The notes under the pieces: model-generated | Database searches by the model: none | The model's input: the letters and a program-made list of their open reading frames with translations, nothing else | What the model was told of the DNA's origin: nothing | IMG/VR virus record: IMGVR_UViG_3300021086_000001 | Source of the DNA: a virus | Strand: one strand, 5' to 3' | Length of the DNA stretch: 64,000 nt | Made by a program: the position numbers and the translations under genes | Shown here: positions 1-64,000 of the stretch, piece after piece | Layout of the letters: each line of letters starts with the position of its first letter | How positions within the stretch are numbered: position 1 is the stretch's first letter

Positions 1-5
1 ATACA

Positions 6-185
6 ATGAGCAGCAAACGAAATTCAGATGATGTCACACCGGATTCCATAGCATACACGTATTTTGAGATCAGCATCTACTTGCACGGTCTACAGCCCCA
101 TATTCGCGAATTCCTTGTCCGTAAAGATAGAGTACAAGACGTTCCAACTGAATATCCAACGCATGACATGACTGATCAGGATTGA
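6..185 (+). CDS. hypothetical protein (59 aa)
   Basis: ATG at 6 to TGA at 183-185, read manually (MSSKRNSDDV...); below the ORF-track cutoff. Confidence 0.35.
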   Translation: MSSKRNSDDVTPDSIAYTYFEISIYLHGLQPHIREFLVRKDRVQDVPTEYPTHDMTDQD

Positions 186-201
186 CACCAATTGATATAA
201 T
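182..201 (+). promoter_or_regulatory. extended -10 promoter (TG-A-TATAAT) with TTGACA only 8 nt upstream
   Basis: TTGACA 182-187, TG 193-194, TATAAT 196-201, upstream of the HTH gene. Confidence 0.55.
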
Positions 202-252
202 ACCCGCAAGTTGTGTGCGACATACACAACACATAGAAGGAGAGAATATACC

Positions 253-462
253 ATGAGCAAACAAACAGTAGAAACAGCAGAGAGCGAACTTTTGACCGTA
301 TCTGAAGTGTCTGCAATCCTAAGAGTGGATGCAACAACTGTGCGCCGATGGGTGAAGCACGGGACATTTGAGGCCGTCAGTTTGCCACACCGAGGCCGCC
401 GTCAGGCCTATCGCATTCGCAAGGCAACAATGGACAAGCTGCTTGAGACTACTCAGGTATAG
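253..462 (+). CDS. excisionase/MerR-like HTH DNA-binding protein
   Basis: LLTVSEVSAILRVDATTVRRWVKHG is a typical HTH_17 motif; ATG at 253 chosen over the upstream ORF-track start. Confidence 0.85.
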   Translation: MSKQTVETAESELLTVSEVSAILRVDATTVRRWVKHGTFEAVSLPHRGRRQAYRIRKATMDKLLETTQV

Positions 463-477
463 TTAGCAAGCAATCAA

Positions 478-512
478 GGACGTTCTGTAATAGTAGAACG
501 TCCTTTCTTTTT
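478..512 (+). terminator. intrinsic terminator
   Basis: GGACGTTCT/AGAACGTCC stem followed by TTTCTTTTT. Confidence 0.75.
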
Positions 513-517
513 GCCAT

Positions 518-537
518 TTGACATACGGTGATACTAT
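518..537 (+). promoter_or_regulatory. extended -10 promoter (TG-A-TACTAT) with TTGACA 8 nt upstream
   Basis: same layout as 182-201. Confidence 0.5.
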
Positions 538-603
538 GAAATATATCAATAAAAGGAATTGATAATTCGTGATGTACGTGTGCAGAATTCAAGGAGAATT
601 ACC

Positions 604-1071
604 ATGTTGCAAGAATACGCGTCAACGTCTAGAGAGGTATTTCGAGCACTAAGTCTGAGTGTCGACCCACTTTCCGCATTGACAATGGACAGTATCCGCA
701 AGGAAGAGAGAGAGAAGAGAAGGATGTTGGAAGAGATGCGCATTGCAGAGCAGGAAACATGCTGCATGCCTATCATTGCAAAGAGTCCCCCACTCGATAC
801 AGACAAGCTCGTGGCAGCGGTACTTACCGCTGACGATGATCTGTATGTCGATAAGATTGCCAGCTCTAACCACCACACTGCTGACCTCATCAATGAAGCT
901 TTTGATGAGCTGCATAGCATCCCCACGCTGATAGAGATATCCAATCTGAGATACATCGCGATGGGGAAGCTCTCAATGAGGATGAGGTTTTACTACCATG
1001 GGATATTGGTGCCATTCAGGCCAGCGGATAGGGCGTGCAAGTTCGATGTCAGGGTGTATGGCATGAGGTAG
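604..1071 (+). CDS. hypothetical protein
   Basis: AAGGAG RBS before ATG 604; followed by a terminator. Confidence 0.65.
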   Translation: MLQEYASTSREVFRALSLSVDPLSALTMDSIRKEEREKRRMLEEMRIAEQETCCMPIIAKSPPLDTDKLVAAVLTADDDLYVDKIASSNHHTADLINEAFDELHSIPTLIEISNLRYIAMGKLSMRMRFYYHGILVPFRPADRACKFDVRVYGMR

Positions 1072-1092
1072 GTGAGAAGGGAAGGAACGAAT

Positions 1093-1119
1093 GGAGACCG
1101 CTGTTGGGTCTCCTTTTTT
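1093..1119 (+). terminator. intrinsic terminator
   Basis: GGAGACC/GGTCTCC stem + T6. Confidence 0.8.
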
Positions 1120-1190
1120 GTGTCCACAGCATACGTGCAAAAGATGCAATACGAATTGCAGTGGGATAGTGAAATTGATCCTCTAGGCTA

Positions 1191-1219
1191 TTGACATTAA
1201 ATAATATTTATATTATACT
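1191..1219 (+). promoter_or_regulatory. sigma70 promoter with palindromic operator ATAATAT-TT-ATATTAT
   Basis: TTGACA-17-TATACT; 16-bp inverted repeat at 1201-1216. Confidence 0.85.
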
Positions 1220-1257
1220 AAGGACAGTTAAGAGAGCACAAACGAAGGAGCAAGGAA

Positions 1258-1644
1258 ATGAAACAAGTAACATTCTGGGACATCACTGATCTAGACCGAA
1301 ATGAGGTCTACTACCACGCTGTACACGGAAACGTGTTCGGGATGCTTCAGAACCAAGCTGAAGACGGTGAGATCACACTGTGGGGCCGAAACGTGGATGA
1401 TGAGCACGAGAGAGGTGCTGGACAAATCTCTTGTAGTTCCTTCGATGGTATGCAGATGAGTATCGACAATTTCCTGGATGATGATGGCATAATCTTCATC
1501 CTTGCAGGTGAGAACCCCGAGAAGCTCAACTCTGAAGAGTATCTGATTTCTCTTCCTGAGTGGAAAATCGTTGGTGGGCTCCGACCGACTGATGACCCTG
1601 AAATGTTCGAACTGTACACAATGGAAGAGATGGTGAGCCTCTAA
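1258..1644 (+). CDS. small, highly acidic hypothetical protein
   Basis: 128 aa, about 27 D/E vs 7 K/R by manual count; RBS present; first gene after the promoter. Confidence 0.75.
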   Translation: MKQVTFWDITDLDRNEVYYHAVHGNVFGMLQNQAEDGEITLWGRNVDDEHERGAGQISCSSFDGMQMSIDNFLDDDGIIFILAGENPEKLNSEEYLISLPEWKIVGGLRPTDDPEMFELYTMEEMVSL

Positions 1645-2021
1645 TGTCTCGTAAGTGTATTGATTGTGGGGATGAAAGGGCCCTAGGCGCTACAAAGTAT
1701 TGCAGCGCATGTGGTGATAGGCATGCTATTAAGAACCAAGCGCGTGCCGATCTGTACCACACGTTAAGGGTGAGAGGTGCTAAAACCTGCTCACTCTGCA
1801 ATAGAGAGGAGTCTGAATTAGTACGTTTTGCTTCCATTGGGAATAAGTGCAGGGATTGCATGTCTGCAATCCATCAAGAAAAGCAAAACAAATTATGCGC
1901 TGATTGTGGTCTCGCTCTTCCTCTTAAAAAGGGAGGAAGAGCACGCTGCGAAGAGTGCGCAGAGAAACATCACAAGATGCAACAAAAACAATGGTACGAG
2001 AGGAAGAAGAATGGCGAGTGA
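1644..2021 (+). CDS. Cys-rich (six CxxC) zinc-binding protein
   Basis: CIDC, CSAC, CSLC, CRDC, CADC, CEEC; start overlaps the upstream stop codon. Confidence 0.75.
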   Translation: MSRKCIDCGDERALGATKYCSACGDRHAIKNQARADLYHTLRVRGAKTCSLCNREESELVRFASIGNKCRDCMSAIHQEKQNKLCADCGLALPLKKGGRARCEECAEKHHKMQQKQWYERKKNGE

Positions 2022-2292
2022 AGAAAAAACCGTAGGGCGTCCTCGCAAGGGGGTGACTCAAGTGACCTTTACGCTTGAGCAGGATGTTGTTGAGTATATC
2101 AGCAGCCTCCCAAGCGGACAGAAGAGTGAATTTGCTAACACTGCACTAAGAGCAGAGATTGCACGTCTGCATACTTGCTCTCTATGCAGCCACACGGCAG
2201 ACCTTAAATGTGAGATAGGAACGTGCGCACCTATCACATGGTTTTGCTCATACCACTATATGGTAAAGCACCACCCAGAAGATGGAGACTGA
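2011..2292 (+). CDS. ribbon-helix-helix-like regulator with C-terminal Cys/His motif
   Basis: GRPRKG + TQVTFTL beta strand + two helices (CopG/RHH pattern); ATG at 2011. Confidence 0.6.
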   Translation: MASEEKTVGRPRKGVTQVTFTLEQDVVEYISSLPSGQKSEFANTALRAEIARLHTCSLCSHTADLKCEIGTCAPITWFCSYHYMVKHHPEDGD

Positions 2293-2332
2293 GCAAGCTC
2301 TCGACTAGTTTCAGAATTCCCTTGAAAACCCC

Positions 2333-2361
2333 TTGACAAAAGATAATATTTATATTATTAT
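2333..2361 (+). promoter_or_regulatory. sigma70 promoter with a second copy of the operator ATAATAT-TT-ATATTAT
   Basis: TTGACA-17-TATTAT; identical 16-mer at 2343-2358. Confidence 0.85.
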
Positions 2362-2424
2362 ATTATCAGTGAAGGGAACAACGGGTTCTCGAAAAGTAAG
2401 AGCAATCTCAGAAAGGCCAACAAA

Positions 2425-2667
2425 ATGCCGCAAGAACACAGCAGTATCCCGGCTCATCAGAACGATGAGAACATCGCCCTCATCATTGAGGGCATGGTAG
2501 CCAAGGTCTATGTCAGGGAATATTCCTTCCCTGGTGGAGAGAGACAGGAAGTTGTCTTTGAGTCGGGGAATTGGGAAGAGGCTGAGGAGAAGTATGTTGA
2601 AGCTCTCATGCTTCGTGACCAGTCAGGCTTTAAAGATGCTGCGACAATTCGCAAACATTTAGTATAG
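2425..2667 (+). CDS. hypothetical protein
   Basis: 80-aa ORF directly downstream of the promoter. Confidence 0.65.
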   Translation: MPQEHSSIPAHQNDENIALIIEGMVAKVYVREYSFPGGERQEVVFESGNWEEAEEKYVEALMLRDQSGFKDAATIRKHLV

Positions 2668-2710
2668 TTGATAGAGCAGCTCAGTGAGCTAGCACGAAAG
2701 GTTTTTCAAG

Positions 2711-3172
2711 ATGGGACTCATGAAATATCAATTTGATAATCATGCTAATGGGGACATCTATTCATCTCCAGATAATCGCGATCCTGAAGACCTCAGGAAG
2801 ATCCATGAGATGCTGGAGAAGTGGAACTCTCCTGAGTATAAAGCGGAGGCGGAAGCTAAAGAGCGACATGAAAGAGAGTGCATTGCTGCTCTCAAAGCTA
2901 AGAAGCTTGCCCAATGCCAAGGAGAGCTTGATGCGGCATGTGAGTGCCCTGTAAAAGTAGGAGTAGAAGCGTTCCGTTGCCCAGTTCTCAGGACGATAAA
3001 TGGCAGTGGGAGAGCAAAGTCCTGGGCTGTCATCAGGAGCAAGCAGTGTTTTCCCGTTGTGCTCAATCTAGAGATAGATGCTTTCTGCCTGGACGAGCCA
3101 GGATGTGCAGTTCCTCTACAAGGTGTTCTTGAGGGTCATGCTGCGCGTGGATATTCCTTCGAGAGATGGTAG
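2711..3172 (+). CDS. hypothetical protein
   Basis: ORF track; co-directional with the operon. Confidence 0.55.
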   Translation: MGLMKYQFDNHANGDIYSSPDNRDPEDLRKIHEMLEKWNSPEYKAEAEAKERHERECIAALKAKKLAQCQGELDAACECPVKVGVEAFRCPVLRTINGSGRAKSWAVIRSKQCFPVVLNLEIDAFCLDEPGCAVPLQGVLEGHAARGYSFERW

Positions 3173-3216
3173 TTTCGTTTCGATAGTAGAAACGAAAAGT
3201 GAAAGGAGCAATTACC

Positions 3217-3438
3217 ATGAGTGGCCCATATTGGAAGGTTCCTTATTCTGCCCAACGCAAAGGGCAGTACGCAACTATTGAAGAGGTACAAGCGGCTCTT
3301 CCGTCTGATGTCCCAGGATTGTCCGTGGATGATGGTCTTCGGTATCCCTGTGTGCGATTCCCTGAGAATGCCTCAAATGAGACGATGCAAAAGGTGAAAA
3401 AGCACTTGGAGAGTCAGGGATTTAGCGCAGTATATTAG
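3217..3438 (+). CDS. hypothetical protein
   Basis: AAAGGAG RBS before ATG 3217. Confidence 0.65.
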   Translation: MSGPYWKVPYSAQRKGQYATIEEVQAALPSDVPGLSVDDGLRYPCVRFPENASNETMQKVKKHLESQGFSAVY

Positions 3439-3477
3439 TACAGTGGGGCATTTCTGCCCCCACTCCCAGGAGTAATT

Positions 3478-3681
3478 ATGTTATACGCAGTCATCTTCCG
3501 CAATCGTGCGGAAGAGCTTGTCATTAGGGCTATTGAAGACTCTTCCATTGAGGAGGCCATTGAGACTGTTGTCTCCCAATGGAATAAAGATTATGAAGGC
3601 ACAAAAGAGGAATGTGAGTATCCTCTATCTGGAGCGAGCGCCGTTCCAATAAAGTCTGGGGAAGGGATATATCATGCATAA
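3478..3681 (+). CDS. small acidic hypothetical protein
   Basis: AGGAG RBS; E/D-rich. Confidence 0.65.
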   Translation: MLYAVIFRNRAEELVIRAIEDSSIEEAIETVVSQWNKDYEGTKEECEYPLSGASAVPIKSGEGIYHA

Positions 3682-4057
3682 GTATCAATTCTCAGCTCAG
3701 TTTCTATCTGATATCGTCGCGATTGCGCATGATATCGCATATCATCAACGCGGTGTCCGCGAATTGCAATCTGTAGATGTTCTGCAAGAAAAGTTCGTAA
3801 AAGAGCTAAAAGAGCTGAGCGAGACAGATCATCCTATAGAAGAAATTGTAGATGTTGTCTATTATGCCCTCTGCCTAGCAGCTCAGGGTAAAAATCTTCG
3901 CTTATCTGAGATAGAGAGTGGACTATTATCAAAATATTCGTATTCTCAGGAGCAACTTGAACGGGCCTCGCTTGCCAAGTATCGCATCCGAGCTGAAGGA
4001 CCAAATAGTAAAGATTTCGAGAGAGAGCGTGCAGCCATCAATGCGGCTCTCAAGTAG
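3674..4057 (+). CDS. MazG-like all-alpha NTP pyrophosphohydrolase (putative)
   Basis: KFVKELKELSE...IEEIVDVVYYAL resembles the MazG ExxE...EExD metal-binding motif. Confidence 0.55.
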   Translation: MHKYQFSAQFLSDIVAIAHDIAYHQRGVRELQSVDVLQEKFVKELKELSETDHPIEEIVDVVYYALCLAAQGKNLRLSEIESGLLSKYSYSQEQLERASLAKYRIRAEGPNSKDFERERAAINAALK

Positions 4058-4072
4058 CCCACGCATCCGTCG

Positions 4073-4097
4073 GAGCCATCGAAAGGTGGCTCTTTTT
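4073..4097 (+). terminator. intrinsic terminator
   Basis: GAGCCAT-CGAAAG-GTGGCTC + T5. Confidence 0.75.
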
Positions 4098-4102
4098 CAT
4101 GC

Positions 4103-4390
4103 TCAGCTCAGTATGATCCTCATCGCAAGCACAGCAGCTACAATCTTCCAAAAAAAGATGAGAGCCACCACTACTCCAAAGAGTGCAAATCCTACCACGA
4201 TAGAACGGAAGCCACGTATCTCAATCTTCCTATCCTCTTGCAAGAGATTATGCCAGTATGGTGGGGGTGTCCAAGGATCATCATCTCTGTCATAGCGCAT
4301 CTTAGGCATAACAGGTATTTCTACTGCTGTTTCCGTCTCGTTAAACTTATGTTTGAGTTCGGGATCTGGAAGCGGATCTCTGAGTAGCAT
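4103..4390 (-). CDS. membrane-anchored hypothetical protein
   Basis: C-terminal hydrophobic stretch IVVGFALFGVVVALIFFW. Confidence 0.55.
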   Translation of the reverse strand: MLLRDPLPDPELKHKFNETETAVEIPVMPKMRYDRDDDPWTPPPYWHNLLQEDRKIEIRGFRSIVVGFALFGVVVALIFFWKIVAAVLAMRIILS

Positions 4391-4642
4391 AGGGCGTGCC
4401 TCTTTGTAGGTCTGCTCCGTAGTATTTCTTTGCAAAAATTGTTAGGGAGCAGCGCAATAAGAATGCTGCCAATCCGCTAATTACGCGTTGGGGGATGCAC
4501 AATCTCTTCCTTCTCCCCAGAAACTGTGCAGCGAATTGGCATACCTCAATTCTATAGTACATGCAAGGCGTGGTCAAGACTGTGTGTTTGCATGAATATT
4601 TTGTTTGTTTTGAAAATTGGTCATAATTCAATGCAAAACAAC

Positions 4643-4671
4643 TTGACAACAGTTTGATTTTATGGCATAAT
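4643..4671 (+). promoter_or_regulatory. sigma70 promoter
   Basis: TTGACA-17-CATAAT; CATAATTCAA repeated at 4622 and 4666. Confidence 0.75.
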
Positions 4672-4723
4672 TCAAATGTCGAGAGAAGTACTTGAGACGA
4701 AAGAATGAAAGAGAGATTTTGAA

Positions 4724-4930
4724 ATGATTAATCACGAAGTAGCAATTATTGGTTTTGATGGTGACATTGGCGAAGTGAATGCAGCTCTAATAAGCGCTGG
4801 CATCCAAATCAATGCAGAAGAGGCCAAGTCACAAGGTAAAGAGTCCTCGGTGTATGTCAGTCCTATGCAGATAGGACTGGCTGTCAAAATCATCAACGAC
4901 TTGGGATATGAGACTGATGAAGATGAGTAA
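4724..4930 (+). CDS. small acidic hypothetical protein
   Basis: 68 aa ending GYETDEDE; first gene after the promoter. Confidence 0.7.
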   Translation: MINHEVAIIGFDGDIGEVNAALISAGIQINAEEAKSQGKESSVYVSPMQIGLAVKIINDLGYETDEDE

Positions 4931-5216
4931 TAGCAATCGTGGGGGTGCTCGTCCTGGAGCTGGACGCCCCAAGATCAAAGTCGTCAAAGCTCCTGAGAGG
5001 CCTGACTCTGAGTGGATGCTTGTTCCTATCCCTATTCCGATGTGGGAGGAATTTTGTGAAGCAGCTCAAGAATACGTTACCCCATTAGGGAATGAGCCTC
5101 AAAAGTCAGATTATGTGAGACTAGCAGATCTGGTGATGATTGATGCTATCAATCGATACATCAATCAGAAAAAAAGAGCTGACAAGAGAAAGGCAAAGGA
5201 AAATGAACAAATTTAG
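4923..5216 (+). CDS. putative DNA-binding regulator (RGGARPGAGRPK arm, RHH-like)
   Basis: N-terminal RGGARPGAGRPK motif common in RHH/HTH regulators. Confidence 0.6.
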   Translation: MSNSNRGGARPGAGRPKIKVVKAPERPDSEWMLVPIPIPMWEEFCEAAQEYVTPLGNEPQKSDYVRLADLVMIDAINRYINQKKRADKRKAKENEQI

Positions 5217-5526
5217 AGAAGAGATTAAACGAGGCGCGGCCTTGCTGGATAATAAGTTCCCAGGATGGGAGAGTAAAGTAAATGTCAAAACACTTGACAT
5301 GAGCAAGGCGAGCCTCTGTCTAATCAGGCAGGTTAATCCATATTATGAGGTATGGCATACAGAACGAGAAATTTTGCCTCTTCAAGAAGGTACTGCTGAA
5401 TCGCTTCTGCATGCAAGTGCTGAGCATGGTTTCTATGTCGAGGATCAAGGCCGATTTCCTGAGCAGGCATATGCACCCCTGACCCAGGAATGGATACAAT
5501 TACTGCAAGAAAGGCAGAACGTTTAG
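5203..5526 (+). CDS. hypothetical protein
   Basis: AAGGA RBS before ATG 5203; converges on the lysis genes. Confidence 0.65.
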   Translation: MNKFREEIKRGAALLDNKFPGWESKVNVKTLDMSKASLCLIRQVNPYYEVWHTEREILPLQEGTAESLLHASAEHGFYVEDQGRFPEQAYAPLTQEWIQLLQERQNV

Positions 5527-5585
5527 CTAGTCCATATGAGTAGAAGCAAGCCCGGGTAACCATCTCGGGGCTTCTCCATGTCAGA

Positions 5586-5936
5586 CTATTGAGCTGCCCT
5601 AATCGCAAGCGGTGCAGGTGGCTCCGGTGGCTGTGGCTTGCTCAACGCGTTTACAGCAGCCTCTATAAATGCACTGAGTATCCCATCATCCGGTACAGGC
5701 AACTTGAATGTCATGAAGAACGACTTTAGCATGATCATGGCGTGATCCTTCTTCTCAGCATTCGAGCTCTCGGGGAATTGCTGCTCGACCATAGCAACTG
5801 CGACACTGGCCCAACGCTCGACATACGCTCTTTGTTGAGCAGGGAGATGCACGAGAAGCAGGTGGTAGAAGTAGCCCACAATGATGACGATTATCGGGAC
5901 AAGGTAGGGTGTAAGTGCGGTGATAAGCTGTGTCAT
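5586..5936 (-). CDS. holin, LL-H-like
   Basis: N-terminal TM helix then AVAMVEQ...AEKKDHA...IEAAV pattern; in the lysis cassette. Confidence 0.7.
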   Translation of the reverse strand: MTQLITALTPYLVPIIVIIVGYFYHLLLVHLPAQQRAYVERWASVAVAMVEQQFPESSNAEKKDHAMIMLKSFFMTFKLPVPDDGILSAFIEAAVNALSKPQPPEPPAPLAIRAAQ

Positions 5937-6334
5937 GGTTGTTGCTCCTTCTTTTCTATATCACTGATATGTATTGTTGTACTTCCTCCTTTGTTGTCTC
6001 TGATGTGGACCATCTTTCCTCGTATTGTCACCTCCATACCCATGGACTCTAGGGCAGAATATACAGTCTCAACTACTTGATTAAGCCTCACGTTCTCCTT
6101 TTCTGCTTCTTCCATCCTTCCTCGTAGTATATTCAAGTGCATCTGCATTGCTGAAATAGCATCTGCATTAGCCTGCTTTGCTATATCCTCCACTTTCTTT
6201 TCCGACTCTTTTTGAGCATCTTCTACCTTGGATTTGACACTTTTGTTCGTATACCAGCCATAGACGATCATAGCAAAGATCGTGAGAACAATCCCCGGCC
6301 AGCCTGATACCCCTGGAATTTGCATTGGGTTCAT
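5933..6334 (-). CDS. single-TM coiled-coil lysis-cassette protein
   Basis: N-terminal TM helix, heptad-rich body; sits between two holin-like genes. Confidence 0.6.
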   Translation of the reverse strand: MNPMQIPGVSGWPGIVLTIFAMIVYGWYTNKSVKSKVEDAQKESEKKVEDIAKQANADAISAMQMHLNILRGRMEEAEKENVRLNQVVETVYSALESMGMEVTIRGKMVHIRDNKGGSTTIHISDIEKKEQQP

Positions 6335-12895: not shown

Positions 12896-13243
12896 TCAAC
12901 TGCTACCTCCCATAGGCGATATAGCATCTACAATACTTTTTATGGTTGGGTGAGTTGCCTCTAGTGCTTGTGTCTGTGTTGCAATGTACTCTGCAAACGT
13001 GCGCAAGAACTGAGATATCACCACAACCTTGTCCGTTTGTGCTTGTGCATTTTGTACCTGATTAATAAGATTAAACCCATCAGGCGAAAACTGACTTTGC
13101 TGTATTTTCTGCATATCCAGTTGAGCATTGCGCCGCTTCACTAGGTGTTGCAATGCTGCCCCGAAGCTAGCAGGTGACAGCCCAAGCGTTGCTAGCGCTG
13201 CTTCAGCATCGGCTATATCCTGTTGATCTTGTGCAAGTGTCAT
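12896..13243 (-). CDS. hypothetical protein
   Basis: ORF track; co-directional with the late operon. Confidence 0.6.
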   Translation of the reverse strand: MTLAQDQQDIADAEAALATLGLSPASFGAALQHLVKRRNAQLDMQKIQQSQFSPDGFNLINQVQNAQAQTDKVVVISQFLRTFAEYIATQTQALEATHPTIKSIVDAISPMGGSS

Positions 13244-13255
13244 TTGAATTTCCCT

Positions 13256-16200
13256 CTAAAAAGCTTCTAAAAACATCTTTTGCCAACTACCAAGCGATGG
13301 CCCCTCGACAAGCGTCAATTGCCAGTAATACAGCATTGACATTTGACCGCTAGCCGTGACAATGACGACGCTAAGATCCATAGCGGTTATGAGCATGGAC
13401 GCATCGAATAGCCCAAGCTCTGGGATGAAAACAGGGATGTACTGGCCGACTGACAACCCCGTCCGATTGGTTTGGCACGTCAAAGTTCGGCCTATCACTC
13501 CAAACCGTTGCAATGAAGCGTCTCCATAGGCTTGAGCCGCCGATACAGTGAGGTTTTGAGACGATACGTCCTCCACAACCTCTACAATGCCAGATCCCCC
13601 TGTGAGAGCCGCGTATTGTGATTGAGAAGTGGTATTCGGGAAGCCACCCGTATTGTTGCGAACAACTTCCGTTGTGACCTGCCCTATGTAGCCGATGGTG
13701 AAACTGTCCACGAATGGCTGTAAGAGTGTGCCGGATGCGTCTTGGGCAAGGCTGTTCGACCCATAGGCATAATAGAAATCTTTTCCTGTGTCGATCCCTT
13801 TTTGCCCAATGGTTTTAACCTGTCCGTTAACTGAAATGGCTGGAATACCTTCAGCTATGGGGGCTTGGAGTGACCAAGAAGTGGACTTCCCATCACCAGG
13901 ATGAGTTTCTTGGATGATCTGGGTATCCATGACACCTTGCAAAATCTGTCTGTTCCTATAGAGATCTCCCGAATTCTCGACTTTGAGATTGCTATCCAGC
14001 AACACATCGTTGGATGTGAGTATCCAGGGCGCGGGTAAAGCGATGCGTGGTCCGAACAGCATTTCTTTGCTTGGGTCAATTTGCCAATTGCAATCCGACC
14101 GCTTACCAAGGTCATCACAATTGGCAGAAACAGCCTTCCTCCGGTAGTCAGCGGTATCCACCAACGCGCCCAAAGCAATGTTTGGATGCAAAGCTGCTAG
14201 GGTAAGATCTGTCAACTGTGGTGTTTGGGTTGGATCGGTTGAAGACAGGGTTACGCGGGTGTAAGCATTGACCCCAGATAGTGACTGCCCTTGTGGTTGT
14301 ATTCTCAAGTTGTAAAAGTAGGCAGTACCGGATGCTTCTATCAACCCTGCTTTACCAGGGCCAGCAAGGGAGCTATCAGTCGTGTTGATCAAGGTATTCA
14401 CATTATCATCCAACCACACCTTTACAGATGTCCCCACCATTAATACATGAAATCTATGATACGTTCCTCTTATGAATGATATTGCAACATTAGAACCGAT
14501 CTGTGTTTTTGTATTTGCAACGACTTTGTAGAGTTGGATGACATTGGTTAAACCTGCATTAGAGCTTGCATCATATATGTCCAATCCATAGAAATTTGAA
14601 GCATCGGATTGTCTCCACACCAGTCCTCCACGATCAACTTGATCCGTGTCAACGATAAGATCAACATCTTTATTCGAGTTGATGGGTTGAGCAATGAGAG
14701 AGCCTACAGAGTAGAAGCTGTCAGGACTCGACTGGTTGTTGTATTCCGTGCCAAGCCAGCCAGCGGCACGCACTGAGTTAGAGTACCGGACCTCATCAAT
14801 GTCCCCTTGGAAAAACCCGCCGACCCATGATTTACCGCCTATTCGGAGTGGGTTGGTTACCGCTTGCGGGGTAACGCTGGACTGTGATGAGTCCTGAACA
14901 CCATTGAAGTAGATAATCACCGTGCTACTGGCATAGGTAACATCTATTTTTGTCCAAGTATTCAATGGTATCTTGGCAGTTGAGAACTTGTCTTGAGATC
15001 CAGCAGGCCACCACCAGAGACGTCCTGTGGTGTCTATGCCGATAATGTATCCATTAGTATTTCCGCTCTCGTTGCGGTCAATGATAGTGGCCCCATAGGA
15101 GCCGAACGCGACTGCAAAGGATGCTTGATTAAAGGCTGAGGGATTAATCCAGAAACTATAGGTTAGGGTTGCAACCGTGTTGAGACTAGCGGCATTGGGG
15201 ACGTTTACATAATCGCTTGTGCCATTGTAGGAAAGCGATCTGCCAACTTGTCCATCTACTGTTAGCGCATTGGTGTTTTGCTGTGCCGTGCCATCGTTGG
15301 CATTAGAAGTGCTCTCATTTACAAGAGTACTAGCAGCGTTGTCGTACCCATGCATGACAAGTTTGAAGTTGCTATCCCATACACCAGTAACAAATTCTTG
15401 AGAAGTCGTGATAGATGCATTCCCGAAATACATGTAAAATACAGTGTCAACTGTATGGGATACAGTAGCCACACTGACCCACATGAAGATTTCGCCTGCT
15501 ACCGGATCATAGCTCTCAATCTCGAAGAAAAGACCGCCTGTCTCCGTTGAATCCGAGAAAACAATATCGTAGCCATTGATATTCTGAACGAGCCCGCGAT
15601 TAGCCACATTTGCAAGGCTTGGATCGGTGATGTGAACGAGGACAGGGAAGCTGGATAGGTCAGAGCTTCCAACGACTTTGGTATGATCAATGGTTAATTT
15701 CTTCTTGTACCCATAGCCTGTGTTGTACCAGGCTGGACTTGAAAGCTGCATGTCGTTGGTACCACCTGAAACAGTCACACGTGAATTAGAGGTATCCCAT
15801 ACCCATGTACCCGCGCTTCCCCCTGTCCTTGCAAGGTGGATGTAGTTGAGATGATCATCCACTGCAAAGGTATCCAAGAATGGCAAGGGCTGTCCAGCTA
15901 TGCCAGCGATAGGACCGCCATTATTGACGTTAGTCCAAGATCCTGATCCCGTTGGACTTGTAGCAACAACTATAGATGTTCCTAGTGGGGTTACCACATC
16001 CCAATTCGCTACAGTATTTCCAGCTATCAGGGCATTGGAGAGGGAAAGCGCGGGCGATATACGGGTGCCGGAGCTGCTAAATCCTCCCAAGGCATAGGCC
16101 GTGAGGTACTGAATTGCAGGGAGGATAGTAGAAGAATTGGTAGCAAATATGATTTGAAAGAGAACACTGACACCAGATAATGATTGCCCTAATGTGAGGT

Positions 16201-51686: not shown

Positions 51687-51779
51687 ATAATACCACGAAC
51701 TAACGTCGTTGTCAATACATTCTTGTACCAATATTGATAAGAATACGACGTTGACAGAAATACGTTTGTGTGGTATGCT
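51687..51779. promoter_or_regulatory. back-to-back sigma70 promoters
   Basis: minus: TTGACA(51715)-17-TATTAT; plus: TTGACA(51751)-17-TATGCT. Confidence 0.85.
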
Positions 51780-51808
51780 CCTTATATTCACAAGAAAGGA
51801 GATACAAC

Positions 51809-52021
51809 ATGCTGAAGTTACGCATAAAAGAATTGGCAGAAGCGCAGGGGCTTAATCGGAATCAATTGCAACTGAAGAGTCAGGTTACCCTCCCTTTGCT
51901 TACCCGCTATTGGCTGAACAAGACTACGGAGGTCAAGCTTGACGCATTGGATCGAATAGCTAAGGCGTTGGGAGTCAAGGCTAGTGAATTGTTTATTGAG
52001 GAAGAGGAAAGCGTTGCATAG
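51809..52021 (+). CDS. Cro/C1-type HTH regulator (paralogue A)
   Basis: LRIKELAEAQGLN...LDRIAKALGV. Confidence 0.88.
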   Translation: MLKLRIKELAEAQGLNRNQLQLKSQVTLPLLTRYWLNKTTEVKLDALDRIAKALGVKASELFIEEEESVA

Positions 52022-57636: not shown

Positions 57637-57700
57637 TTGATGTTCCTTCGCTTTCGCTTTACGTTTTTGTTTTTGTTTTTGTTTCGCTTGGTATGTAAGA

Positions 57701-57784
57701 AGTATAGTTCATCTTACGTTAAATGTCAATGCTTTTTAACATGAATATTAACGTGTTGACAAAAAATCATTGGAAAGCTATACT
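57701..57784. promoter_or_regulatory. back-to-back sigma70 promoters
   Basis: minus: TTGACA(57729)-17-TATACT; plus: TTGACA(57756)-17-TATACT. Confidence 0.88.
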
Positions 57785-57830
57785 TAGCACGTTAGCGTTT
57801 TTGTTCAAATGAATTAATGGAGGTGCGTTA

Positions 57831-58067
57831 ATGGCACGACTGATTATCAAGGAGATTGCAGAGAAGCAAGGGCTGAACCAGTCTAGACTTCAAATCAAGG
57901 CGGGTGTTACCGCTCAGCTACTCAATAGGTATTGGAACAATAATACCGAGAGCGTAGCACTTAAGCAGTTAGATATGATTGCAAAAGCATTAGGAGTTAA
58001 TCCTGGAGATTTGATAATACCTGATGAGGTAAGCAAAAGTCAGGAAAAAGGGTCGGAAGCAGCCTAG
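57831..58067 (+). CDS. Cro/C1-type HTH regulator (paralogue B)
   Basis: LIIKEIAEKQGLNQ...LDMIAKALGV. Confidence 0.88.
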   Translation: MARLIIKEIAEKQGLNQSRLQIKAGVTAQLLNRYWNNNTESVALKQLDMIAKALGVNPGDLIIPDEVSKSQEKGSEAA

Positions 58068-63553: not shown

Positions 63554-63850
63554 ATGGCAAACGACATTACATCAACAGAGTATACCCAGTATATGGCTTT
63601 AAGAGAGCAGATTAACACTGGCATTGAAGAGGCTGATAGTGAATTTATGCTCACTACTTATTCATTGCTTCGCAGTGTTATGAACAAGCGACAAAAGGCT
63701 GCTTTGCAATTGAATATCACACTGGAAAACCAGACTCTTCAGAAGAAGAAACTTGAGAAAAGAGAGCAGCTTCGTAACGCAAAAGCATCGGGTAGTAGCA
63801 CCCCACAAAGCGCACCTAGCAGGCCGACTTCTAGCAGGTCAGATTTATAA
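63554..63850 (+). CDS. hypothetical helical protein
   Basis: ORF track; AAGGA upstream. Confidence 0.6.
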   Translation: MANDITSTEYTQYMALREQINTGIEEADSEFMLTTYSLLRSVMNKRQKAALQLNITLENQTLQKKKLEKREQLRNAKASGSSTPQSAPSRPTSSRSDL

Positions 63851-63944
63851 AAGTTTTCAAACGAAAAACATTTTAGCGGCAAAATTTTCGTGAGAATGGT
63901 CTAAGACCGCCATGAGAGTGAGGCCGCTTTTTGTGCGCCTTTAT

Positions 63945-63974
63945 ACGGCCACCTAACGGCCACCTAACGGCCAC
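63945..63974. repeat. 11-bp tandem repeat
   Basis: ACGGCCACCTA x2 plus ACGGCCAC. Confidence 0.85.
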
Positions 63975-64000
63975 ATTTAACTTTTCGTTTTGAAAGTTTC

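What the first reader, a model, noticed from the sequence alone, without database searches (positions are those of the whole stretch)
1191..2361. Two strong promoters share an identical 16-bp palindromic operator and bracket an RHH gene (acr/aca-like layout)
Seen: ATAATAT-TT-ATATTAT lies in the -35/-10 spacer of both P1191 and P2333, each near-consensus. The first operon is a very acidic 128-aa protein, a six-CxxC protein and an RHH-like protein. Established: anti-CRISPR and other anti-defence operons are often small acidic genes behind a strong promoter repressed by a co-encoded Aca through an inverted repeat. Inference: the RHH protein autoregulates an entry-burst anti-defence regulon covering 1258-4057.
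Basis: partly seen in the sequence, partly recalled or inferred. Interest (0 to 1): 0.7.

Follow-up and report, generated by a model that had tools for sequence, protein, structure and literature searches.

The report
Phage RHH-zinc-finger repressor, two shared operators
A soil phage has two strong promoters that carry the same 16-base palindrome and flank a gene for a new DNA-binding protein (ribbon-helix-helix plus zinc finger), which most likely shuts both promoters off after an early burst; the layout is a familiar kind of phage switch and the small genes it controls remain of unknown function.

Summary
ATAATATTTATATTAT occurs exactly twice in the roughly 65.6-kb circular phage genome. Each copy lies 4 nt after a TTGACA -35 box in a 17-bp spacer, in P1 (1191-1219) and P2 (2333-2361).

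The gene between the promoters (2011-2292) encodes a protein of no Pfam family. It has a GRP arm, a predicted ribbon-helix-helix (RHH) domain and a Cys5His2 zinc-finger-like C-terminal domain.

The P1, variable genes, RHH-Zn gene, P2 layout recurs in three other phage lineages (in L001 only the P2 side, because the contig is cut). Their RHH genes are near saturation at synonymous sites, yet 15 of 16 operator positions are invariant in all seven promoters.

Two other RHH classes sit behind the same promoter scaffold with different spacer sequences. One is a 12-bp GC-rich palindrome in L017. The other is an identical 17-nt spacer in L012 and L020.

It works like Aca14 or P22 Arc, but binding has not been shown.

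The anti-defence part is untested. Seven cargo proteins have no recognisable family, and the last one is a MazG-like lead. The acidic protein is the first gene behind strong promoters in four other mobile elements, which is suggestive only.

Verdict: new variant of a known kind, moderate interest.

The parts
1093..1121 (+). Intrinsic terminator that closes the upstream transcription unit and isolates P1
   Evidence: 7-bp GC-rich stem plus T-run. Homologous terminator-promoter spacing is seen in L003, L017, L012 and L020.
1170..1181 (+). A-rich element upstream of P1 (TGAAATTGATCC), UP-like and part of the shared promoter scaffold
   Evidence: Conserved at about -45 in all promoters of this class, whatever the operator. 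Its function is inferred.
1191..1219 (+). Promoter P1: -35 TTGACA, 17-bp spacer, -10 TATACT
   Evidence: 11/12 match to consensus. Conserved in L003 and L006/L007.
1201..1216 (+). Operator copy 1, ATAATATTTATATTAT. It fills the spacer and overlaps the first 3 nt of the -10 box.
   Evidence: 15 of 16 positions are invariant in 7 promoters from 4 lineages.
1258..1644 (+). Acidic 128-aa protein (pI 4.05, net -20), first gene of the P1 operon, function unknown
   Evidence: It has 21 homologues at 45-91% identity. It is the first gene after a terminator and strong promoter in L010, L011, L012 and L013. The AF2 model is unusable at pLDDT 47.
1644..2021 (+). Basic 125-aa protein with six CxxC motifs (three predicted zinc ribbons), an orphan
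   Evidence: Sub-threshold hits to double zinc ribbon families. No homologue of similar length. Partial similarity to L013 10100-10816.
2011..2292 (+). RHH-Zn regulator, 93 aa: GRP arm (residues 9-11), strand 15-22, helices 24-32 and 37-53, C-terminal Cys5His2 domain (C56, C59, C67, C72, C79, H82, H87)
2310..2321 (+). A-rich element upstream of P2 (TTCAGAATTCCC), a degenerate copy of the UP-like scaffold element
   Evidence: Alignment A4.
2333..2361 (+). Promoter P2: -35 TTGACA, 17-bp spacer, -10 TATTAT
   Evidence: 11/12 match to consensus. Conserved directly after the RHH-Zn gene in L001, L003-L005 and L006/L007.
2343..2366 (+). Operator copy 2 (2343-2358) plus a third ATATTAT half-site (2360-2366) across the -10 box. 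Relatives have the perfect palindrome ATAATATATATATTAT here.
2374..2390 (+). Stem-loop in the P2 leader, GGGAAC / GTTCTC
   Evidence: Six pairs conserved in 4 sequences, with one compensatory change and one G-U pair. Its role is unknown.
2425..2667 (+). 80-aa acidic protein, first gene of the P2 operon, unknown
2711..3172 (+). 153-aa protein with 8 Cys, unknown
3217..3438 (+). 73-aa protein, unknown. A homologue lies in the P2 operon of L001 (62% identity).
3478..3681 (+). 67-aa acidic protein, unknown. A homologue lies in L012 (37% identity).
3674..4057 (+). 127-aa protein, a lead for an all-alpha MazG-like NTP pyrophosphohydrolase. A homologue lies in L012 (55% identity).
   Evidence: Atlas feature scores 0.86-0.90 to MazG, dATP/dGTP-PPHyd and PRA-PH clusters, and TM 0.62 to a viral cluster in which 29% carry MazG. 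No Pfam hit. L012 homologue.
4072..4100 (+). Intrinsic terminator that ends the P1/P2 transcription unit
   Evidence: 9-bp stem plus T-run. The next gene is convergent (4103-4435, minus strand).

Best explanation
The region 1191-4100 is one nested early transcription unit of a roughly 65.6-kb soil phage. The host is probably a member of the Ktedonobacteria.

Host sigma-70-type RNA polymerase fires from two very strong promoters. P1 expresses the acidic protein, the six-CxxC protein and the RHH-Zn regulator. No terminator is predicted before P2, so P1 transcripts probably run on. P2 adds transcripts for five more small genes up to the terminator at 4072.

The 93-aa RHH-Zn protein dimerises through an antiparallel beta-ribbon. 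It then binds the half-sites ATAATAT and ATATTAT of the 16-bp palindrome, probably as a dimer of dimers. Its Arg-Gly-Pro arm probably lies in the AT-rich minor groove.

The palindrome fills the 17-bp spacer and overlaps the -10 box, so a bound protein excludes the polymerase. The result is negative feedback: a burst of expression, then shut-off of both operons.

The cargo is a variable set of small accessory genes. I rate counter-defence or host take-over as their most likely role (about 40%), but this is inference only.

Shown: the sequence architecture, its conservation, operator/regulator co-variation, the predicted fold and the predicted dimer.
Inferred: DNA binding, repression, timing and cargo function.
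For: 1. The operator is exact and identically placed in both promoters and is absent elsewhere in the genome.

2. The layout 'operator promoter, variable genes, RHH-Zn gene, operator promoter' recurs in L003 and L006/L007. In L001 the P2 side is seen; the contig is cut upstream.

3. These lineages are only 29-52% identical at four-fold synonymous sites of the RHH gene. Even so, 15 of 16 operator positions are invariant in 7 promoters, although a sigma-70 spacer normally carries no sequence constraint.

4. The spacer co-varies with the regulator on a homologous promoter scaffold.
- L017 has a diverged RHH-Zn (P0008) with a different strand and GAP in place of GRP. Its spacer holds ATGCGTACGCAT.
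- L012 and L020 carry a third RHH class. They share an identical 46-nt promoter with the spacer TTTAATAAGATAAATCA, but have different cargo.

5. Fold evidence.
- The AF2 model has pLDDT 84, with an extended segment followed by two helices.
- The top VIA-align rows are RHH proteins: KacA, TacA, MazE, CopA, PrpA, SvtR, ParD2, PutA52, omega, NikR, ArtA and AcrIE10. Z is only 2.7-3.8, with rmsd 2.1-6.0 over 41-63 residues.
- One relative matches Pfam Arc at 3.9e-5 and another FitA-like RHH at 1.9e-4.

6. The homodimer model scores ipSAE 0.44 against 0.00 for the best of 3 controls. That mark was reached by 20 of 30 proteins solved as pairs of one chain and by 1 of 23 solved as single chains. The runs agree in at least 89% of contacts and partner pLDDT is at least 63. 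The interface is residues 14-27 and 38-52, with residue 19 against residue 19, which is the RHH ribbon. This pass may reflect likeness to solved RHH dimers.

7. No other DNA-binding gene travels with the operator. The HTH_17 gene upstream of P1 has no homologue in L001-L009.

8. The RHH gene is the last gene of a short operon of small variable genes, as aca genes are. A natural fusion (P0031) joins an RHH domain to the cargo family found next to the RHH gene in L002, L007 and L008 (46% identity, E 3e-35).

9. Weak: contigs from a soil metatranscriptome cover 1260-1424 and 2960-3381 at 99% or more. DNA carry-over is not excluded.
Against: - No binding or repression data exist. Everything rests on linkage and co-variation.
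- L002, L008 and L009 carry close RHH-Zn homologues with no operator in their short contigs. L002 clearly lacks P2 after the gene.
- The window protein itself has no Pfam hit, and structural Z scores are low.
- Class B rests on one locus, and the class C spacer is not an obvious palindrome.
- Cargo: no homology to any known anti-defence protein. The acidic protein is 70-91% conserved across elements, which is unusually stable for a counter-defence protein.
- The operons lie downstream of the replication genes on the same strand, so 'first in, first expressed' is not shown.
Confidence: 0.65

Rival explanations
1. The regulatory circuit is as described, but the cargo is ordinary early accessory or host-take-over and nucleotide-metabolism genes, not anti-defence. 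The resemblance to acr-aca loci is only architectural.
For: - No cargo protein matches a known anti-defence family.
- The last gene is a lead for a MazG-like NTP pyrophosphohydrolase.
- The operons continue the rightward block that carries the DnaD-like, DnaC-like and HAD-phosphatase genes.
- Autoregulated early operons with RHH repressors exist outside anti-defence, for example P22 Arc (my own knowledge).
Against: - The cargo ahead of a conserved regulator is variable.
- The small acidic protein comes first behind strong promoters in four other elements.
- A regulator-cargo fusion exists.
- These are the same hallmarks used to find anti-defence genes (PMC13551039, PMC11065993).
Confidence: 0.45
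2. The palindrome is the site of a different regulator, and RHH-Zn has another target. Candidates are one of the phage's Cro/CI-type HTH proteins (57831-58067, 51770-52021), the HTH_17 protein (250-462), or a host AT-binding nucleoid protein.
For: - Binding is untested.
- The phage encodes at least three other small DNA-binding proteins.
- Three RHH-Zn loci show no operator nearby.
- AT-rich palindromes also attract nucleoid proteins.
Against: - Only the RHH gene is in cis with the operator in all four class A lineages.
- The spacer sequence switches with the RHH class in L017 and in L012/L020, while the rest of the promoter stays homologous.
- A host-factor site would not switch between GC-rich and AT-rich forms.
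Confidence: 0.15
3. The RHH protein is a type II antitoxin, and the neighbouring gene is its toxin. The palindrome would be the usual toxin-antitoxin autoregulatory site.
For: The best structural neighbours are RHH antitoxins: KacA, TacA, MazE, ParD and PrpA.
Against: - The genes next to the RHH gene are not conserved between loci.
- No toxin family was detected.
- The C-terminus is a compact Cys/His domain, not a disordered toxin-binding tail.
- A strong promoter separates it from the downstream gene.
Confidence: 0.04

Closest known systems
Aca14, the RHH-type anti-CRISPR-associated repressor (Pasteurella multocida; NAR 2026, PMC13551039)
   Same: A small RHH dimer encoded at the end of a short operon of small genes. 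An AT-rich inverted repeat in its own promoter recurs in the promoter of a neighbouring operon, so one regulator represses two operons.
   Different: - Aca14 was found next to known acr genes or csx20. No known anti-defence gene is present here.
- Its repeat overlaps the -10 box, whereas this one fills the -35/-10 spacer.
- Aca14 is described with a long helical extension, not a Cys/His zinc-finger domain or a GRP arm.
- Sequence homology to Aca14 was not tested, because no sequence was at hand.
AcrIE10, and AcrIIA1-type bifunctional Acr-Aca proteins (Nat Commun 2026, PMC13530269)
   Same: An N-terminal RHH that binds an inverted repeat across -35/-10 as a dimer of dimers, fused to a C-terminal domain with a second job. 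AcrIE10 (8ji9_D) appears among the structural neighbours (Z 2.7, rmsd 4.6, 45 aligned).
   Different: The C-terminal domain here is a predicted MYND/PHD/ZZ-like zinc finger of unknown partner, not the helical Cas7-binding domain. No inhibitory activity is known.
P22 Arc and Mnt of the immI region (my own knowledge; Schreiter and Drennan 2007 is cited in PMC13551039)
   Same: A phage RHH repressor encoded in the operon it shuts off. The operator lies between the -35 and -10 boxes of a strong promoter, giving an early burst and then repression.
   Different: - Arc is the first gene and controls an antirepressor; no Ant or Bro-like cargo is present here.
- Arc has no zinc domain.
- The Arc operator is 21 bp with half-site centres 11 bp apart, against about 9 bp here.
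Shared early-promoter regulatory motifs used to predict anti-defence genes in archaeal viruses (Aca8; PMC11065993)
   Same: Several operons of small unknown genes in one virus share a strong promoter plus a virus-specific regulatory sequence, and a co-encoded small DNA-binding protein is the presumed shut-off factor.
   Different: That system is archaeal (TATA/BRE promoters) with a wHTH regulator and many single-gene units. This one is bacterial, with sigma-70-type promoters, an RHH regulator and two operons.

Membership tests
Ribbon-helix-helix (Arc/MetJ/CopG) superfamily | Strand-helix-helix topology of about 45 residues | tested here: met
   The AF2 model (pLDDT 84) has an extended segment at 15-22 and helices at 24-32 and 37-53.
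Ribbon-helix-helix (Arc/MetJ/CopG) superfamily | Obligate dimer with an intermolecular antiparallel two-stranded ribbon | tested here: met
   The predicted homodimer scores ipSAE 0.44 against 0.00 for the best of 3 controls. That mark was reached by 20 of 30 proteins solved as pairs of one chain and 1 of 23 solved as single chains. The runs agree in at least 89% of contacts and partner pLDDT is at least 63. Contacts are 19:19, 17:21 and 45:45. This is a prediction only and may reflect likeness to solved RHH dimers.
Ribbon-helix-helix (Arc/MetJ/CopG) superfamily | Significant match to an RHH sequence or structure family | tested here: inconclusive
   - The window protein has no Pfam hit.
- Single relatives hit Arc at 3.9e-5 and FitA-like RHH at 1.9e-4.
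- The PDB profile search gives NikR at E 0.27.
- VIA Z is 2.7-3.8, but RHH proteins dominate the top rows.
- Foldseek probability is 0.63-0.77 to CopG entries.
Ribbon-helix-helix (Arc/MetJ/CopG) superfamily | Binds inverted or tandem repeats in an operator | not testable with these tools
   Only linkage and co-variation are available.
Aca (anti-CRISPR-associated regulator) in an acr-aca operon | Encoded in one operon with a validated acr gene or a homologue of one | tested here: inconclusive
   No cargo protein here or in relatives hits any named family in Pfam, PHROGs or PADLOC. No dedicated anti-defence library was available, and novel inhibitors cannot be excluded.
Aca (anti-CRISPR-associated regulator) in an acr-aca operon | Regulator gene at the 3' end of a short operon of small variable genes behind a strong promoter | tested here: met
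Aca (anti-CRISPR-associated regulator) in an acr-aca operon | Inverted repeat in its own promoter, and, as for Aca14, in a neighbouring operon's promoter | tested here: met
Aca (anti-CRISPR-associated regulator) in an acr-aca operon | Sequence homology to Aca1-Aca14 | not tested
   No Aca sequences or HMMs were available among the tools.
P22 immI-type Arc/Mnt module | Controls an antirepressor (Ant) gene | tested here: not met
   No Ant, KilAC or Bro family hit in 1258-4057.
Type II toxin-antitoxin with an RHH antitoxin | A conserved adjacent toxin gene | tested here: not met
   The genes on either side of the RHH gene differ between loci, and no toxin family hit was found.
MerR-type regulators that bind in the promoter spacer | Overlong 19-20 bp spacer and a MerR HTH protein | tested here: not met
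   The spacer is the optimal 17 bp, and the regulator candidate is RHH, not MerR.
MazG-like all-alpha NTP pyrophosphohydrolase (for 3674-4057) | Match to MazG, PRA-PH or dATP/dGTP-PPHyd profiles or fold | tested here: inconclusive
   No Pfam hit at E up to 1. Atlas feature scores are 0.86-0.90 with 138-163 shared features, and TM is 0.62 to a viral cluster in which 29% carry MazG.

The most novel reading that the evidence does not exclude
RHH-Zn may be a bifunctional regulator-effector in the manner of AcrIE10 or AcrIIA1.

Its C-terminal Cys5His2 finger resembles MYND, PHD and ZZ fingers, which are protein-binding modules. The same domain also occurs as free-standing 54-59-aa proteins and fused to unrelated N-termini.

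On this reading the finger would bind a host protein, either a defence component or RNA polymerase. Titration by that target would lift repression of P1 and P2, matching the output of the regulon to the amount of host target. The RHH-cargo fusion P0031 would be a second example of the same logic in this family.
Probability: 0.15. Interest if true: 0.7.

Novelty: new variant of a known kind. Interest (0 to 1): 0.45.

Why it matters
- It defines a new, very rare regulator family: 34 representatives among 1.84 billion proteins. The family combines an RHH domain, an AT-hook-like arm and a zinc finger. This domain combination has no significant match in PDB, AlphaFold DB clusters or BFVD.
- It provides three natural operator/regulator specificity classes on one promoter scaffold. 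That is a ready-made system for studying RHH specificity, and it supplies orthogonal repressor/promoter pairs.
- The family is a guilt-by-association anchor for the otherwise unannotatable early genes of soil phages of probable Ktedonobacteria hosts. No anti-defence genes have been identified in these phages with the libraries used here.
- If the cargo proves to be counter-defence, the acidic 128-aa family would be the first candidate to test, because it is spread over several kinds of mobile element.

Tried and rejected
- No similar DNA in INPHARED phages. No operator-promoter pattern and no RHH relative in IMG/VR. No relative in GTDB genomes. JGI metagenomes gave only the same phage plus L002. 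No whole genome is held for the window.
- Acidic protein: no Pfam or PHROG hit and no PDB profile hit. The AF2 model has pLDDT 47, so no fold search was made. The Atlas row for Arr-type ADP-ribosyltransferase (0.94, 143 shared features) is below the level at which such hits are usually real, and I reject it as evidence.
- CxxC protein: only sub-threshold zinc-ribbon hits. The PADLOC Cas10c hit (E 2.5e-4 over a Cys-rich stretch) is treated as compositional. No homologues were found.
- Foldseek of the RHH-Zn model against PDB, AFDB clusters and BFVD gave no row with E below 0.1. The C-terminal domain resembles MYND, PHD, ZZ and RING fingers only weakly.
- No Rfam family in 1-6000.
- L012 and L020: I looked for a clear palindrome in the class C spacer and found only 5-bp arms. 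Class C is therefore used for co-variation only, not as a palindromic operator.
- L014 aligns to the window in two opposite-strand pieces, most likely an assembly artefact, and was ignored.
- The metatranscriptome contigs cannot show starts, strand or level, and DNA carry-over is possible. I use them as a weak hint only.
- Lookups in earlier findings by sequence returned nothing.
Full report
**Observation**

The 16-mer ATAATATTTATATTAT has 7-bp inverted arms and a TT centre. It is exact at 1201-1216 and 2343-2358, and nothing else in the window comes closer than 3 mismatches. Each copy begins 4 nt after a consensus TTGACA. P1 is TTGACA-17-TATACT (1191-1219) and P2 is TTGACA-17-TATTAT (2333-2361). 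Both score 11/12, tied with the promoter at 4643 as the best in the first 9 kb.

The palindrome fills the spacer and overlaps the first 3 nt of the -10 box. P2 has a further ATATTAT half-site at 2360-2366. The similarity between P1 and P2 runs over 48 nt. It includes an A-rich element near -45 and part of the leader.

**Genome context**

The window is nearly a whole phage genome. A JGI contig (L015) joins the window's end to its start across 1,574 nt, which gives a circular map of about 65.6 kb. That gap holds no further operator, so the genome has exactly two copies.

Lysis, tail, head and terminase genes lie on the minus strand, roughly from 4.1 to 51 kb. The plus strand carries, in order:
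- a Cro-type HTH gene, behind a strong promoter at 57756;
- a DnaD-like gene, a DnaC-like gene and a HAD phosphatase gene;
- two genes in the gap;
- an HTH_17 gene at 250-462;
- a terminator at 1093-1113;
- P1 and P2 with their operons.

The regulon is therefore the distal part of the rightward early block, not demonstrably the first DNA to enter the cell. A homologue of the acidic protein is labelled Ktedonobacteraceae in an NCBI MAG. Earlier notes on this genome suggest the same host.

**Genes**

The P1 operon holds three genes:
- 1258-1644 encodes 128 aa, pI 4.05, net charge -20.
- 1644-2021 encodes 125 aa with six CxxC motifs and is basic.
- 2011-2292 encodes 93 aa. Homologues that begin M-x-EEK support this start.

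No terminator is predicted in the 40 nt between the stop codon at 2292 and P2. P1 transcripts should therefore read into the P2 operon. That operon comprises 2425-2667, 2711-3172, 3217-3438, 3478-3681 and 3674-4057, and ends at the terminator at 4072-4093.

**The regulator candidate**

The 93-aa protein has no Pfam or PHROG family. Only 6 close homologues exist among 5.8 billion clusters. A profile search found 34 representatives among 1.84 billion proteins.

These hits split the protein into two modules that also occur separately.
- The N-terminal module (residues 1-54) has an invariant G9-R10-P11, an AT-hook-like core that reads RGRP in most relatives. It then has an alternating T/V/F strand and a conserved SLPSGxKSEF helix start.
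- The C-terminal module (residues 55-93) has invariant C56, C59, C67, C72, C79, H82 and H87.

The AF2 model has pLDDT 84, with an extended segment at 15-22 and helices at 24-32, 37-53 and 80-87.

VIA-align against 48,161 PDB representatives gives low Z values of 2.7-3.8, as expected for a 45-residue domain. The top rows for residues 13-57 are nevertheless almost all RHH proteins. They include KacA, TacA, B. subtilis MazE, CopA, PrpA, SvtR, CdbA, ParD2, PutA52, omega, NikR, ArtA and AcrIE10.

A homodimer model passes its controls. The score is 0.44 against 0.00 for the best of 3 controls. That mark was reached by 20 of 30 proteins solved as pairs of one chain and 1 of 23 solved as single chains. 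The runs agree in at least 89% of contacts and pLDDT is at least 63. The interface is the classic RHH one, with strand residue 19 against 19 and helix 2 against helix 2. The pass may reflect likeness to solved RHH dimers.

The C-terminal domain resembles MYND, PHD, ZZ and RING cross-brace fingers only weakly. The two-domain combination has no significant match in PDB, AFDB clusters or BFVD.

**Comparative evidence that the palindrome is this protein's operator**

I fetched the contigs of the homologues.

In L003 and L006/L007 the same layout is present. A P1-type promoter carries the TT-centre 16-mer after 'ttaa'. Two or three unrelated genes follow, then the RHH-Zn gene. A P2-type promoter comes next, with the perfect palindrome ATAATATATATATTAT and the extra TATATTAT. 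L001 shows the P2 side; its contig is cut upstream.

Among these four lineages the RHH genes are 63-74% identical in protein and only 29-52% identical at four-fold synonymous sites. Yet 15 of 16 operator positions are invariant in all seven promoters, and only the centre varies. A sigma-70 spacer has no such constraint of its own.

Stronger still, the spacer changes with the regulator on an otherwise homologous promoter.
- L017 has the same upstream element, the same -35 box, the same -10 box (TATACT) and the same leader (aaggacagtt). Its spacer holds the 12-bp palindrome ATGCGTACGCAT. The RHH-Zn gene that follows (P0008) has a different strand and GAP instead of GRP.
- L012 and L020 share an identical 46-nt promoter with the spacer TTTAATAAGATAAATCA. 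Both encode a third RHH class with the strand DRV(K/Q)RTYTIDRE and with other C-terminal domains. Their cargo differs.

No other DNA-binding gene travels with the operator.

Against this, L002, L008 and L009 have RHH-Zn genes with no operator in their short contigs, and L002 clearly lacks P2.

**Cargo**

The genes ahead of the RHH gene differ between phages, as in acr-aca loci.

The acidic protein has 21 homologues. In four other elements (L010, L011, L012, L013) it is again the first gene after a terminator and a strong TTGACA promoter. Those promoters have other spacer sequences, and the neighbouring genes differ.

A second acidic family is found in L002 355-792, L007, L008 and L013. It sits beside the RHH gene or the acidic gene, and in P0031 it is fused to an RHH domain (46% identity, E 3e-35).

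None of the cargo proteins, here or in relatives, hits a family of known function. The acidic protein could not be modelled. The last gene, 3674-4057, is a lead for a MazG-like NTP pyrophosphohydrolase.

Contigs from a soil metatranscriptome cover parts of both operons. This is a weak hint of expression.

**Mechanism**

The strong promoters fire with host polymerase. RHH-Zn accumulates from P1. It binds the palindromes as dimers on each arm, with arm centres about 9 bp apart and the GRP arms in the AT-rich minor groove. This occludes the -35/-10 region of both promoters.

In relatives, P2 has a perfect palindrome plus a third half-site while P1 has an imperfect one. P2 may therefore be shut off more tightly, leaving a basal supply of repressor from P1. 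In this window both centres are TT.

Binding, repression and timing are inferred.

**Comparison with known systems**

The logic matches several known cases:
- P22 Arc (my own knowledge);
- Aca14, an RHH Aca that represses its own and a neighbouring operon through an AT-rich inverted repeat (PMC13551039);
- AcrIE10, an RHH fused to an effector domain that binds as a dimer of dimers across -35/-10 (PMC13530269);
- the shared early-promoter motifs of archaeal viruses (PMC11065993).

It is not shown to be a member of the Aca families. No known acr gene is present, and homology to Aca14 was not testable. The TA-antitoxin and MerR-type readings fail defining features.

The new elements are the protein family, its RHH-plus-zinc-finger architecture, and the three operator/regulator specificity classes.

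**Verdict**

The regulatory interpretation is well supported by comparative evidence (about 0.65-0.7). The anti-defence interpretation remains open (about 0.4). This is a new variant of a known kind, of moderate interest.

Noticed in passing
L003:3190-4897: In a relative, the operator-controlled P1 is followed directly by a HEARO/omega RNA (3262-3493, 135 bits, E 6.6e-29) and an IscB-like gene (RRXRR + HNH, 456 aa). An RNA-guided nuclease element therefore sits in, and would be transcribed from, the RHH-controlled early promoter. TnpB genes also lie near the module in other contigs.
   Followed up: partly
window 4643-5526; also L017:2729, L001:9933, L013:15515: A second promoter class has a conserved leader stem-loop (TCAAGTGTCGAGAGG...CTCTCGA). 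Some members carry a short palindrome in the spacer: L017, L001 and L013 by eye, but none is evident at window 4643. In the window it drives a 68-aa acidic protein (pI 4.06), then a 102-aa protein with a GAGRPK arm, which may be another small regulator, then a 128-aa protein. This may be a second layout of the same kind.
   Followed up: partly
window 2374-2390 and P2 leaders of L001, L003, L007: A 6-bp stem-loop close to the predicted transcription start is conserved, with one compensatory change and one G-U pair. It could stabilise the 5' end or be a second regulatory site.
   Followed up: partly
L015:1-5871 against window 63585-64000 and 1-3881: An independent metagenome contig joins the window's end to its start across 1,574 nt that hold two plus-strand genes (307 aa, with long hydrophobic stretches, and 203 aa). 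The phage map is therefore circular or permuted, about 65.6 kb.
   Followed up: yes
L010, L012 and the ERZ1761205 contig: The acidic 128-aa family also occurs in elements that carry DUF87/AAA_10-type ATPases, an SLT transglycosylase, a PIF1 helicase and SSB. These may be conjugative or plasmid-like elements rather than phages, and the gene is again first behind a strong promoter.
   Followed up: no
L013:131-442 and 13140-13898: The element that carries an acidic-protein homologue also encodes a Csx3-like protein (weak hit) and a Csf3-like protein. These CRISPR-associated families are possibly co-opted by the element.
   Followed up: no
window 51687-51780 and 57700-57785: Two pairs of divergent near-consensus promoters (51715- with 51751+, and 57729- with 57756+). 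The plus-strand promoter of each pair precedes a Cro/C1-type HTH gene (51770-52021 and 57831-58067), so there are two separate switch regions.
   Followed up: partly
L014: This JGI contig aligns to window 1717-4041 and then to 4109-1822 on the opposite strand. I read this as a hairpin-like assembly artefact.
   Followed up: no
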